Shown: positions 6,743-43,767 of the stretch, piece after piece | Numbering within the stretch: position 1 is the stretch's first letter | Layout of the letters: each line of letters opens with the position of its first letter | Origin: Escherichia coli | GTDB taxonomy: Bacteria; Pseudomonadota; Gammaproteobacteria; Enterobacterales; Enterobacteriaceae | Strand: one strand, 5' to 3' | Length of the DNA: 44,355 nucleotides | Assembly (NCBI RefSeq): GCF_044324785.1 | Contig: NZ_CP172130.1 | The notes under the pieces: model-generated | Databases searched by the model: none | The model's input: only the letters and a program-made list of their open reading frames with translations | What the model was told of the DNA's origin: nothing | Program-made: the position numbers and the translations under genes

Positions 6743-6922
6743 TTACGCGACCTCAGCCTTTTGCGGTTTTGGCTTGGTGATATACCACGATAGACAACCG
6801 ACAATAAAACTCATGAACATTCCAGTAAAACGATCATCGATGCCTGGAAACAGGCAACCGACAAACATCGCAACAGGGAAAGGAAGAAGTAAACAGCGCC
6901 CCAAAATGCTCATAAAATCCAT
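6743..6922 (-). CDS. Small hydrophobic protein (59 aa, two predicted transmembrane helices)
   Basis: GGAGG RBS then ATG (MDFMSIL...); immediately downstream of the 31-aa peptide gene and a GC-rich hairpin (6943..6968). Confidence 0.3.
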   Translation of the reverse strand: MDFMSILGRCLLLPFPVAMFVGCLFPGIDDRFTGMFMSFIVGCLSWYITKPKPQKAEVA

Positions 6923-6988
6923 AAATCCTCCTTTGTTAAAGGGCAGGAAGCGGTGCACTTCCTGCCCTTAGTTACGTTTCCGCAGTCA

Positions 6989-7084
6989 TCAATCGATGAA
7001 CTGACGGATCAGTTCCAGAACTGCAATCAGCGCGTTTGCAACGGCGACCACAGCCCTGAGAACGATGATTAACAGGTTAATCAT
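6989..7084 (-). CDS. Candidate type I toxin: 31-aa hydrophobic peptide MINLLIIVLRAVVAVANALIAVLELIRQFID (DinQ/TisB-like)
   Basis: ATG with GGAG 6 nt upstream; the SD lies in a CUCCAG/CUGGAG hairpin; single transmembrane helix; absent from the ORF track because it is under 60 aa. Confidence 0.4.
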   Translation of the reverse strand: MINLLIIVLRAVVAVANALIAVLELIRQFID

Positions 7085-7344
7085 CCGTTTCTCCAGGTTG
7101 ATACTGGAGGAAGTCGCCGTTGCTTGCTCATACATCGCCTGTCACAACGGCTCTCTCACATTGTTGGATGTAGAGTACCTTCCCCCTGCCAGAGCACTGA
7201 ACACAGCACCACCTGTTTGTTCAGCCAGGACTTTAATTCGTTCATACCCAGATAGCGCAGGGTTTAGAAGCAAGGGAGGCACACTGTACAGCGCCAACAC
7301 AAAGATTATACGGGGTCTGACGCTCAGTGGAACGAAAACTCACG

Positions 7345-42771: not shown

Positions 42772-43053
42772 TTAGCGCAAATCTGCGATCTGATAGACTT
42801 CGCTGCTTTCCCTTCTTCCAACGGCAATAACGAGTAAAACGACTTTCTCATCAATGACTTGGTATACAAGTCTGTAGCCAGATGCACGAAGTTTGATTTT
42901 ATAGCGATCAGCATGACCATGTAACCGGGCTGCGGGTACGCGTGGATTTTCCAGCCGTTCTGCCAGTTTCTTTTTGAATTGTTCACGGATGGTGTGGCCG
43001 AGTTTCTGCCATTCCTTCAGTGCTCTACGGTCAAAAGCCAGTTCATAGGTCAT
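42772..43053 (-). CDS. stbE: RelE/ParE-family toxin of a type II toxin-antitoxin pair
   Basis: 93 aa; RelE-like sequence (…YKIKLRASGYRLVYQVIDEKVVLLVIAVGRRE…); 11-nt overlap with the upstream antitoxin gene. Confidence 0.8.
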   Translation of the reverse strand: MTYELAFDRRALKEWQKLGHTIREQFKKKLAERLENPRVPAARLHGHADRYKIKLRASGYRLVYQVIDEKVVLLVIAVGRRESSEVYQIADLR

Positions 43054-43294
43054 CCAGGTTAACCTTCACAATTTCCGGGTTTTTCATGCGCTCATCAGCA
43101 ACAGCGTTTAACTCAGCATCTTCAGCGAGTTCCCGATAGTAGGCGTAAAGTTTTGGTGGAACGCAATAGAACGCCGGTTCGTTTCGGTTCAGGATCGCAA
43201 CAGCGTCCCCTTCACCTTCAGCTACGGTTCCCATAGGATTTTTTTTCAGGTCAGTAATACTGGCCGCTGTGGTTGTCAGAATTTGATAGCTCAT
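43043..43294 (-). CDS. stbD: RelB/Phd/YefM-type antitoxin
   Basis: 83-aa acidic protein immediately upstream of and overlapping the RelE-like gene. Confidence 0.75.
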   Translation of the reverse strand: MSYQILTTTAASITDLKKNPMGTVAEGEGDAVAILNRNEPAFYCVPPKLYAYYRELAEDAELNAVADERMKNPEIVKVNLDDL

Positions 43295-43767
43295 AAGCCC
43301 TCCGCTTGTCTCATTGGCATAATAGCATCTTTAAAAGCACTCTTAAAAGTGCTTATGTTGAGAAAAACATCAGAACAGGTGAGATATGGCTCTTTCCGAC
43401 ATCGCCTTAAAACGCTCTGTAACGCGTTCTGAGCGTTTTTTCCCGTTTCGTTGTAGTCAGCTACGGTTTAACGGTTTTTAACGCCGCTCAACGCTTTTTA
43501 GCGGCCTTGTTGCTGTGATCTGTTGCCATGATCCGGATAGGAGTTCAATCTTGATCAAAATTTCCTCAAGGCAACGACTGTTTTGTAAATACCCTCTAAA
43601 ACGCGCTGTATCGCATTCTGAGCGATTTTTTCGATTTCGCATGTTTTCACCATGGTTGTATCGAACGAAGCGGCAGAAAGCGATTCAGGGCTTCTCAGTG
43701 AAAGATCCAAAAAGGATCAATCAACGGATCGTATGAGCTGAACTCTTCTGGTTTTGAGAAAGGAGAC

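What the first reader, a model, noticed from the sequence alone, without database searches (positions are those of the whole stretch)
6989..7311. Candidate type I toxin gene (31-aa peptide) at the Tn3 insertion site
On the minus strand a 96-nt ORF encodes MINLLIIVLRAVVAVANALIAVLELIRQFID, a single-helix peptide in the style of TisB/DinQ/Ldr toxins. Its SD (GGAG) sits inside a CUCCAG/CUGGAG hairpin, the usual translation-inactive leader of such toxins. About 80-115 nt upstream in the predicted 5' UTR (7163..7198) is a block that a divergently encoded sRNA (18105..18198) would base-pair with. A perfect TATAAT on the minus strand lies exactly at the Tn3 junction (7305..7310), so the Tn3 insertion may have replaced the native -35 region of the toxin promoter. 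I am not aware of such a module in IncX backbones.
Basis: partly seen in the sequence, partly recalled or inferred. Interest (0 to 1): 0.78.

Follow-up and report, generated by a model that had tools for sequence, protein, structure and literature searches.

The report
DqlB–AgrB toxin–antitoxin split by Tn3
The 31-residue ORF is the already described plasmid toxin DqlB, and its RNA antitoxin AgrB now lies 10.7 kb away because a Tn3-type resistance transposon landed between the two genes; the module is known and annotated, also on IncX plasmids, so only the split is a curiosity.

Summary
The 31-aa ORF (6989..7084, minus) scores 72.8 bits against NCBIfam NF041473, 'DinQ-like type I toxin DqlB' (cutoff 35). 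RefSeq annotates dqlB at this position on identical IncX1 plasmids. The proposed sRNA is Rfam AgrB (18107..18194, 68.8 bits, gathering score 40). Its first 32 nt pair with the dqlB leader at 7164..7195 (28 Watson-Crick, 3 G-U, 1 mismatch). Toxin leader and antitoxin co-vary across 12 modules from different plasmid groups.

A Tn3-family element (38-bp IRs at 7312..7349 and 17967..18004, 5-bp duplication TATAC) sits between the two genes. It abuts position -13 of the family-conserved dqlB -10 box. Removing it in silico gives a sequence identical over 1203/1203 bases to natural 33,657-bp IncX1 plasmids.

The dql family was named in 2016. DqlB-AgrB was shown to be a toxin-antitoxin/addiction module on IncL pOXA-48 and IncX3 pOXA-484 in 2025, and dqlB was reported on 53% of IncX plasmids.

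The only new details are the transposon splitting the module and a second, independent Tn3-family insertion 1 bp away in pOLA52. Verdict: already known; low interest.

The parts
6989..7084 (-). dqlB coding sequence: 31-aa hydrophobic single-helix type I toxin (stop codon included)
   Evidence: NF041473 72.8 bits against a cutoff of 35. Annotated dqlB / WP_000609149.1 on identical plasmids. 84-97% identical to alleles from IncX3, IncX4, IncI, IncL/M and IncN. 15 synonymous against 5 non-synonymous codon changes versus the IncL/M allele.
6939..6969 (-). dqlB 3' terminator stem-loop (GGGCAGGAAG...CTTCCTGCCC followed by UUU)
   Evidence: Scan hit. Conserved with compensatory changes in all 11 aligned mRNAs, K-12 dinQ included.
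7091..7109 (-). Hairpin that sequesters the SD: CUCCAG (7109..7104), 7-nt loop, CUGGAG (7096..7091) containing the SD GGAG
   Evidence: Pairing probability 0.93-1.0. Covariation CUCCAG/CUGGAG versus CUCCAU/AUGGAG. Corresponds to sequences 3 and 4 of the dinQ switch (PMC5066626).
7164..7195 (-). AgrB target site in the dqlB 5' UTR (mRNA nt about +104 to +135). It includes the dinQ 'sequence 2' equivalent.
   Evidence: 28 WC + 3 GU + 1 mismatch with AgrB nt 1-32; -57.7 kcal/mol against -21.6 +/- 3.8 for shuffles. Each module's leader matches its own AgrB best.
7298..7298 (-). Inferred dqlB transcription start (G of GUUGG). Predicted mRNA 7298 to about 6935, 365 nt, with AUG at +215.
   Evidence: It aligns with the +1 of K-12 dinQ, which I placed by counting back from the published position of the start codon (G195; PMC5066626). 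G-T-Y-A/G-R is conserved in all 12 modules. Inferred by homology, not measured.
7305..7310 (-). dqlB -10 box TATAAT
   Evidence: TATAAT/TATACT/TATGAT in all 12 aligned modules. The 2016 paper marks conserved -10 elements.
7307..7311 (.). Left copy of the 5-bp target-site duplication TATAC
   Evidence: Present once in natural empty sites.
7312..7349 (+). Tn3-family 38-bp terminal inverted repeat (tnpA end). The 5'-truncated tnpA (from 7345 up to the IS26 boundary at 10269/10270) reads towards dqlB.
   Evidence: Exact IR match; ORF list and IS26 boundary.
17967..18004 (-). Tn3-family 38-bp terminal inverted repeat (bla end)
   Evidence: Exact IR match. The blaTEM-1 ORF and a terminator-like hairpin lie just inside.
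18005..18009 (.). Right copy of the target-site duplication TATAC
18070..18098 (+). agrB promoter TAGACA-17-TAATAT, left intact 65 bp outside the transposon
   Evidence: Promoter scan, 9/12. Its position fits the AgrB 5' end at about 18107.
18107..18194 (+). AgrB antitoxin sRNA: largely unpaired 5' seed, internal stem-loop, intrinsic terminator
   Evidence: Rfam RF02891, 68.8 bits against gathering 40, full length 1-84. Fold -33.1 kcal/mol, z = -5.5.

Best explanation
This is a DqlB-AgrB type I toxin-antitoxin (plasmid addiction) module of the dinQ family, cut in two by a transposon.

How the module works (by homology with dinQ and with the tested dqlB modules):
- dqlB is transcribed from the -10 box at 7310..7305, starting near G7298, as a 365-nt mRNA.
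- The primary transcript is translationally inert because the SD GGAG is locked in the CUCCAG/CUGGAG hairpin.
- A 5'-proximal segment pairs with the G-rich segment around 7190..7175, and this keeps the hairpin closed.
- 5' processing would free that segment to invade the hairpin and expose the SD.
- AgrB (18107..18194), made from its own promoter, pairs through its first 32 nt with 7164..7195. This re-closes the hairpin and creates an RNase III substrate, so no toxin is made while the plasmid is present.
- In plasmid-free segregants the antitoxin can no longer be replenished, and the 31-aa peptide inserts in the inner membrane and kills or arrests the cell.

What happened in this plasmid: a Tn3-family transposon carrying blaTEM-1, since rearranged by IS26 (10,693 bp in all), inserted between -14 and -13 of the dqlB promoter and duplicated TATAC. 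The -10 box, the whole mRNA, and the agrB gene with its promoter are all intact. Everything upstream of -13 is now transposon DNA, and the two genes are 10.7 kb apart. Because AgrB acts in trans, the module most probably still works.

Shown here: identity of both genes, complementarity, conserved RNA structure, and the insertion event.
Inferred from homologues: the switch, RNase III cleavage, toxicity and addiction.
Unknown: current promoter strength.
For: - Toxin: NF041473 72.8 bits. Same ORF annotated dqlB on identical IncX1 plasmids. 90% identical to an IncX3 allele and 84% to a pOXA-48-type IncL/M allele. Synonymous changes exceed non-synonymous ones.
- Antitoxin: RF02891 68.8 bits, with a terminator and strong fold and a promoter.
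- Pairing: 31 of 32 positions pairable, z about -9.6. Own-pair matches are 23-29 of 30 against a cross-pair mean of 19 over 12 modules.
- RNA architecture: 27 of 76 consensus pairs have compensatory changes, including the SD hairpin, SL2, SL4 and the terminator. The predicted +1 fold pairs the 5' segment with the AgrB target region and closes the SD hairpin.
- Insertion: IRs and target duplication. The empty site is 1203/1203 identical in 12 natural plasmids. 16 PLSDB plasmids show the identical left junction and 17 the identical right junction.
- Separation tolerated: in one record (NZ_CP133918.1) the two halves lie about 131 kb apart on one arc of the 164.8-kb circle, about 34 kb on the other.
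- Experimental basis in homologues: dinQ/agrB (PMC3567139, PMC5066626); toxicity, AgrB rescue and killing on plasmid loss for pOXA-48 (PMC12365149); toxicity and plasmid stabilisation for IncX3 pOXA-484 (PMC12317039).
Against: - No transcript or toxicity data exist for this IncX1 allele or for the split arrangement.
- The region upstream of -13 has been replaced. The promoter scan finds no sigma-70 site on the minus strand at the junction, so dqlB could be silenced.
- Thermodynamic folding reproduced the closed state but opened the SD hairpin for only one of five trial 5' truncations (P = 0.32 at +45). The switch is therefore not demonstrated in silico for this allele.
- All occupied-site plasmids are 100% identical over the module. 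The lineage is too young to show whether selection still maintains the toxin.
Confidence: 0.85

Rival explanations
1. The module is genuine but dead in this plasmid. By removing everything upstream of -13, the Tn3 insertion silenced dqlB. AgrB is then a harmless leftover, and the plasmid relies on its RelE/ParE-type module and partition system.
For: The upstream promoter DNA, including an AT-rich stretch, has been replaced by the IR. No sigma-70-like site is called at the junction. Silencing the toxin is always viable, so such insertions would survive. A second, independent Tn3-family insertion 1 bp away in pOLA52 would fit selection for, or tolerance of, toxin attenuation. A RelE/ParE-family toxin with a partner annotated as plasmid stabilization protein lies on the same backbone.
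Against: The family has no conserved -35 at all. The native hexamer at 17-bp spacing is AATGAA (1/6), whereas the IR supplies GTTCCA (3/6) at the same spacing. The -10 box is regenerated exactly by the target duplication. The truncated tnpA and the IS26 tnp gene are co-oriented with dqlB, and no terminator was recognised in the tnpA-dqlB interval, so read-through can supply transcripts. The ORF, SD and leader are unmutated in every occupied-site plasmid.
Confidence: 0.25
2. The locus works like chromosomal dinQ: an SOS-induced membrane modulator under LexA control rather than a plasmid addiction module.
For: It is homologous to dinQ in peptide, leader and antitoxin. A published scan of another plasmid (pTF2) listed a weak LexA-like site next to dqlB, and the same 20-mer occurs here at 7211..7230.
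Against: The dinQ LexA box CTGTATGATTATCCAG overlaps the -10 box. The IncX1 equivalent is CTGTATAATCTTTGTG, which has lost the CAG half-site, and none of the other ten plasmid modules aligned has a CTG-N10-CAG box at that position. The only CTG-N10-CAG in the module lies inside the transcribed leader stem SL2. NF041472 (true DinQ) scores 25.3, below its cutoff of 30. Plasmid homologues behave as addiction modules.
Confidence: 0.05
3. The ORF and the shared block are chance features of non-coding DNA beside a transposon.
For: The ORF is very short, and a 16-mer repeat somewhere in a 44-kb window is not in itself rare.
Against: Curated HMM and covariance-model hits are well above threshold. The locus is conserved in thousands of plasmids with excess synonymous change. 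The RNA pairs and the toxin-antitoxin duplex both co-vary.
Confidence: 0.01

Closest known systems
DqlB-AgrB of IncX3 plasmid pOXA-484 (PMC12317039) and of IncL plasmid pOXA-48 (PMC12365149)
   Same: Same toxin family: 90% identical to an IncX3 allele and 84% to a pOXA-48-type IncL/M allele sampled here. Same divergent trans-acting AgrB with a roughly 35-nt complementary block in the 5' UTR, and the same leader architecture. Those modules were shown to be toxic and rescued by AgrB. The IncX3 module stabilised a test plasmid, and the pOXA-48 module killed cells on plasmid loss.
   Different: This is the IncX1 allele, not itself tested. Toxin and antitoxin genes are separated by a 10.7-kb Tn3/IS26 resistance region inserted at -13 of the toxin promoter. 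The IncX1 intergenic region is longer and its agrB promoter differs (TAGACA-17-TAATAT inside an inverted repeat).
Chromosomal dinQ-agrA/agrB of E. coli K-12 (PMC3567139, PMC5066626)
   Same: Homologous peptide core (10/13 identical), a homologous 5' UTR with the SD hairpin, SL2, SL4 and terminator, an AgrB of the same Rfam family, and antisense pairing far upstream of the SD.
   Different: No LexA box at the promoter. One AgrB copy instead of agrA plus agrB. 31 aa with an AUG start against 27 aa with GUG. The leader is about 20 nt longer (AUG at +215 against GUG at +195). Plasmid-borne with an addiction role. Below the NF041472 cutoff.
tisB-istR1 (E. coli)
   Same: As noted in PMC5066626: a small hydrophobic inner-membrane toxin, an inert primary transcript activated by 5' processing, and a divergently encoded trans sRNA that pairs in the leader far from the SD.
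   Different: No sequence relationship: no TisB family appears even at E <= 10. The dinQ paper points to differences in how SD accessibility is regulated in tisB, though it does not exclude a standby mechanism for dinQ. tisB is SOS-controlled.
hok/sok (plasmid R1 parB)
   Same: Plasmid post-segregational killing by a type I module. The toxin mRNA is kept inert by structure. A 5'-3' end pairing is also predicted here (columns 1-5 with 321-325).
   Different: Sok is cis-encoded, overlaps the mRNA and acts through the mok leader ORF, and activation is by 3' trimming. AgrB is trans-encoded from a duplicated leader segment, and activation in the dinQ family is by 5' processing. The peptide family is unrelated.

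Membership tests
DqlB (DinQ-like B) type I toxin, NCBIfam NF041473 | Whole-protein HMM score above the curated equivalog cutoff | tested here: met
   72.8 bits against a cutoff of 35, aligned 1-31 of 31.
DqlB (DinQ-like B) type I toxin, NCBIfam NF041473 | Short single-helix hydrophobic peptide with the family's signature residues, under purifying selection | tested here: met
   84-97% identical to the seven 31-aa alleles from other plasmids aligned. 15 synonymous against 5 non-synonymous codon differences versus IncL/M.
DqlB (DinQ-like B) type I toxin, NCBIfam NF041473 | dinQ-type 5' UTR: conserved -10, SL2, SL4, SD-sequestering hairpin and Rho-independent terminator (Kristiansen 2016) | tested here: met
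   Alignment of 12 modules. The consensus fold has compensatory changes in each element.
DqlB (DinQ-like B) type I toxin, NCBIfam NF041473 | Mutually exclusive pairings 1:2, 2:3 and 3:4 that open the SD after 5' processing | tested here: inconclusive
   1:2 and 3:4 are predicted in the full-length RNA. Opening appeared for only one of five trial truncations (P(hairpin) 0.32). Needs SHAPE or in vitro translation.
DqlB (DinQ-like B) type I toxin, NCBIfam NF041473 | Toxic when expressed; rescued by AgrB | not testable with these tools
   Shown only for the pOXA-48 and pOXA-484 alleles.
AgrB antisense RNA, Rfam RF02891 | Covariance-model score above the gathering threshold over the full model | tested here: met
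   68.8 bits against 40, model positions 1-84 of 84, at 18107..18194.
AgrB antisense RNA, Rfam RF02891 | 5' region complementary to the cognate toxin leader | tested here: met
   28 WC + 3 GU + 1 mismatch over 32 nt. Co-varies with its own leader in 12 modules.
AgrB antisense RNA, Rfam RF02891 | Encoded divergently, immediately upstream of the toxin gene | tested here: not met
   In this window the genes are 10.7 kb apart. The feature is met in the ancestral empty site (about 110 bp between the two start sites). This is a secondary change caused by the transposon, not an argument against homology.
True DinQ (SOS-regulated), NCBIfam NF041472 | HMM score above cutoff | tested here: not met
   25.3 bits against a cutoff of 30.
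True DinQ (SOS-regulated), NCBIfam NF041472 | LexA box overlapping the promoter | tested here: not met
   CTGTATAATCTTTGTG lacks the CAG half-site. The only CTG-N10-CAG in the module lies in the leader.
Tn3-family transposon insertion | 38-bp terminal inverted repeats flanked by a 5-bp direct target duplication, with a matching empty site | tested here: met
   IRs at 7312..7349 and 17967..18004; TATAC on both sides; empty site 1203/1203 identical.
TisB, Ldr, Hok and other type I toxin families | Sequence membership | tested here: not met
   Only the two DinQ-related NCBIfam models hit at E <= 10. PHROGs gave only a marginal hit (E = 0.13) to a family of unknown function.

The most novel reading that the evidence does not exclude
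The dqlB promoter is a recurrent landing site for Tn3-family transposons, and the resulting arrangement has a function. The evidence for recurrence is two independent insertions 1 bp apart, in the same orientation, in two dqlB alleles that differ by about 5%. The resistance region ends up nested between toxin and antitoxin. One possible function is that it tunes toxin expression through the replaced upstream DNA and tnpA read-through. Another is that it penalises deletions running out of the resistance island into agrB, which would help lock the island into the plasmid.
Probability: 0.12. Interest if true: 0.4.

Novelty: already known. Interest (0 to 1): 0.12.

Why it matters
For annotation, the region should be labelled dqlB (toxin) and agrB (antitoxin sRNA), with the Tn3-derived resistance region recorded as an insertion in the dqlB promoter. 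It adds nothing to what is known about type I systems.

The modest points of interest are these:
- A trans-acting type I module can be pulled apart, by 10.7 kb here and by at least 34 kb in a cointegrate, in plasmids that are circulating successfully.
- The same few bases of the toxin promoter were hit twice independently by Tn3-family elements.
- Comparing the natural empty-site plasmid with the occupied one would be a ready-made test of whether the sequence upstream of the -10 box matters for a dinQ-family promoter.

Tried and rejected
- LexA/SOS control: rejected. There is no intact box at the promoter, and the published LexA-like 20-mer lies inside leader stem SL2.
- IS26 outward hybrid promoter driving the truncated tnpA into dqlB: the IS26 end supplies TTGCAA, but no acceptable -10 follows at 16-18 bp. 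Only unspecific read-through remains possible.
- In silico reproduction of the dinQ 5'-processing switch: partial only.
- The longer 48-aa ORF (6989..7135): rejected as the product. The HMM aligns only residues 18-48, the SD and AUG are conserved at the 31-aa start in all modules, and the 2016 paper notes that such N-terminal extensions are mis-annotations.
- PHROGs: no hit for the downstream 59-aa ORF, and only a marginal hit (E = 0.13, family of unknown function) for the toxin.
- Rfam at gathering threshold does not detect agrB in the IncL/M and IncN loci, although the alignment shows them. Absence of an Rfam hit is therefore not evidence of absence.
- CP088727.1, which looked like another interrupted locus (two BLAST pieces): I did not read the sequence, and no dqlB or agrB is annotated there. 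From the size of the span I guess it is the tandem two-module arrangement rather than an insertion.
- A literature search for a description of the Tn2 insertion site in IncX1 blaTEM-52 plasmids found nothing that links it to a toxin-antitoxin module.

Full report
**Observation**

On the minus strand, 6989..7084 encodes MINLLIIVLRAVVAVANALIAVLELIRQFID. The start codon is preceded by GGAG (7094..7091). That GGAG forms the 3' arm of a CUCCAG/CUGGAG hairpin (7109..7104 and 7096..7091).

The + strand at 7162..7198 repeats 18105..18141, with 30/37 identical and 16 exact. An RNA made from 18107 onwards is therefore antisense to the leader of the ORF. Its first 32 nt give 28 Watson-Crick pairs, 3 G-U pairs and 1 mismatch with 7164..7195. 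The duplex energy is -57.7 kcal/mol, against -21.6 +/- 3.8 for 500 shuffles.

TATAAT lies at 7310..7305, one base from the end of a Tn3-family inverted repeat.

**Identity of the two genes**

The peptide matches NCBIfam NF041473, 'DinQ-like type I toxin DqlB', at 72.8 bits against a curated cutoff of 35. It falls below the cutoff of the true DinQ model (25.3 against 30). RefSeq annotates this very ORF as dqlB (WP_000609149.1) on identical IncX1 plasmids.

Rfam finds one AgrB (RF02891) in the window, at 18107..18194 on the + strand. It scores 68.8 bits against a gathering score of 40 and covers the full model. It has a sigma-70-like promoter, TAGACA-17-TAATAT, at 18070..18098. Its fold has a largely unpaired 5' end, an internal stem-loop and an intrinsic terminator.

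**The insertion**

Exact 38-bp Tn3 IRs lie at 7312..7349 and 17967..18004, flanked by the direct repeat TATAC (7307..7311 and 18005..18009). Between them are:
- a 5'-truncated tnpA reading towards dqlB;
- three IS26 copies with resistance genes (by analogy with a near-identical annotated plasmid);
- tnpR and blaTEM-1.

I removed the element and one repeat copy in silico and searched PLSDB. Twelve records match at 1203/1203 bases. Six of them are 33,657 bp, which is exactly 44,355 - 10,698. In these ancestors, dqlB and agrB are adjacent and divergent.

The identical left junction is found in 16 plasmids and the identical right junction in 17. In NZ_CP133918.1 the two halves lie about 131 kb apart on one arc of the 164.8-kb circle and about 34 kb on the other.

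**Comparative evidence**

I aligned 12 modules: IncX1 (several), IncX3, IncX4, IncI-gamma/K, IncL/M, IncN and K-12 dinQ.

- *Promoter.* The -10 box is TATAAT, TATACT or TATGAT in every module, and a G-T-Y start follows at a fixed distance. I placed the dinQ +1 from the published position of the GUG start codon, G195. This puts the window's +1 at G7298, giving a 365-nt mRNA with the AUG at +215.
- *-35 element.* No -35 is conserved, and intergenic length varies widely.
- *LexA box.* The dinQ box (CTGTATGATTATCCAG) is degenerate in the plasmid modules. The IncX1 version is CTGTATAATCTTTGTG.
- *RNA structure.* RNAalifold on 11 mRNAs predicts 76 pairs, 27 with compensatory changes. These cover the SD hairpin, SL2, SL4, the terminator and a 5'-3' end pairing.
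- *Toxin-antitoxin covariation.* Each module's AgrB 5' block matches its own leader at 23-29 of 30 positions. Cross-module matches average 19.
- *Peptide.* It is 84-97% identical across Inc groups. Synonymous changes dominate, with 15 against 5 versus IncL/M.

**Mechanism**

In E. coli dinQ, the +1 transcript is inert and the +44 species is translated. AgrB binds about 70-100 nt upstream of the SD. This binding restores the closed SD hairpin and triggers RNase III cleavage. DinQ depolarises the inner membrane (PMC3567139, PMC5066626).

For the window's RNA, ViennaRNA predicts two things in the full-length transcript:
- the 5' segment (nt about 14-30) pairs with the AgrB-target region;
- the SD hairpin is closed (P = 0.93-1.0).

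Trial 5' truncations opened the hairpin in only one case, so the switch is plausible but not demonstrated in silico.

The addiction role is inferred from experiments on homologues. DqlB from pOXA-48 is toxic and rescued by agrB, and it kills cells on plasmid loss (PMC12365149). The IncX3 pOXA-484 module is toxic and stabilises a test plasmid (PMC12317039).

**Consequence of the insertion**

The transposon end abuts -13. The target duplication regenerates the -10 box, and the mRNA is untouched. agrB and its promoter are intact 65 bp beyond the other end.

Upstream of -13, the native AT-rich DNA is replaced by the IR. At 17-bp spacing the native hexamer is AATGAA (1/6), and the IR offers GTTCCA (3/6).

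The truncated tnpA and an IS26 tnp gene are co-oriented with dqlB, and no terminator was recognised between tnpA and dqlB. On the agrB side, a terminator-like hairpin follows bla (sequence read).

Sequence alone cannot tell whether dqlB is still expressed at its native level. I consider a functional split module more likely than a silenced one (about 0.6 against 0.25). Either outcome is viable, because the antitoxin is preserved.

**Second, independent hit**

pOLA52 carries two tandem dqlB-agrB modules. The second has a 27-aa allele and is about 95% identical to the window's leader. It carries a Tn3-family insertion in the same orientation, but with the duplication TTATA instead of TATAC, so it lies 1 bp away. 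An uninterrupted copy of that allele exists in pExPB5-59-1. This points to a preferred target in the AT-rich -10 region, or to tolerance of insertions there.

**Novelty**

The dql family was named in 2016 (PMC5066626). The module is annotated by PGAP, was experimentally validated in 2025, and was reported on 53.3% of IncX plasmids. The finding is therefore already known. The transposon split and the recurrent hit are minor additions.

Noticed in passing
L003 1549-1600 and L005 488-520 (pOLA52, NC_010378.1): An independent Tn3-family insertion in the -10 region of a second dqlB allele. The target duplication is TTATA instead of the window's TATAC, so it lies 1 bp away, in the same orientation. 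This suggests a preferred or tolerated target site.
   Followed up: partly
L003 540-1560; L006 297-1047 (perhaps also L016): Some IncX1-type plasmids carry two dqlB-agrB modules in tandem, each AgrB matching its own leader. The second toxin allele is 27 aa, has a weakened SD (AGAG) and a degenerate terminator stem. L016 (CP088727.1) may have the same arrangement, but I inferred that only from the length of the BLAST span.
   Followed up: partly
NZ_CP133918.1 (164,787 bp): left junction 7252-7371, right junction 138377-138496: In this large plasmid, apparently a cointegrate, the dqlB half and the agrB half of the same split module lie about 131 kb apart on one arc of the circle and about 34 kb on the other.
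   Followed up: no
window 6743-6922 (-): A conserved 59-aa ORF with two hydrophobic segments lies just downstream of the dqlB terminator. It has a strong SD (AAGGAGG) and its own terminator. It travels with dqlB in IncX1-type loci, and there is no NCBIfam or PHROG match. It might be co-transcribed by read-through, because the dqlB terminator has only a UUU tail.
   Followed up: partly
window 18070-18086 (+): A perfect inverted repeat TAGACA-ACTGG-TGTCTA overlaps the agrB -35 hexamer. It is kept, with one spacer change, in pOLA52's second module, and is specific to the IncX1-type intergenic region. It could be an operator.
   Followed up: no
window 7211-7230 (+): This is exactly the 20-mer published as a candidate LexA site for dqlB on plasmid pTF2 (PMC12211044). 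It lies inside the transcribed leader (stem SL2), about 70-90 nt downstream of the start. Its CTG-N10-CAG pattern coincides with the arms of the conserved SL2 stem, which may account for it.
   Followed up: partly
L013, L014, L015 (IncL/M, IncN): Rfam RF02891 misses agrB at the gathering threshold in the two IncL/M loci (one of them pOXA-48-like) and in the IncN locus. For L013 and L014 the alignment shows a terminator and a leader-matching 5' block. The Rfam seed appears too narrow for these branches.
   Followed up: partly
window 14219-14294 (-): Rfam AAC_AAD_leader / attI hit (74.3 bits), marking a class 1 integron attI region inside the IS26-bounded resistance segment.
   Followed up: no
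window 42779-43301 (-), by analogy with L001: A RelE/ParE-family toxin gene and an adjacent gene annotated 'plasmid stabilization protein' lie on the same backbone. They look like a second (type II) toxin-antitoxin pair, so the plasmid would not depend on DqlB-AgrB alone.
   Followed up: no
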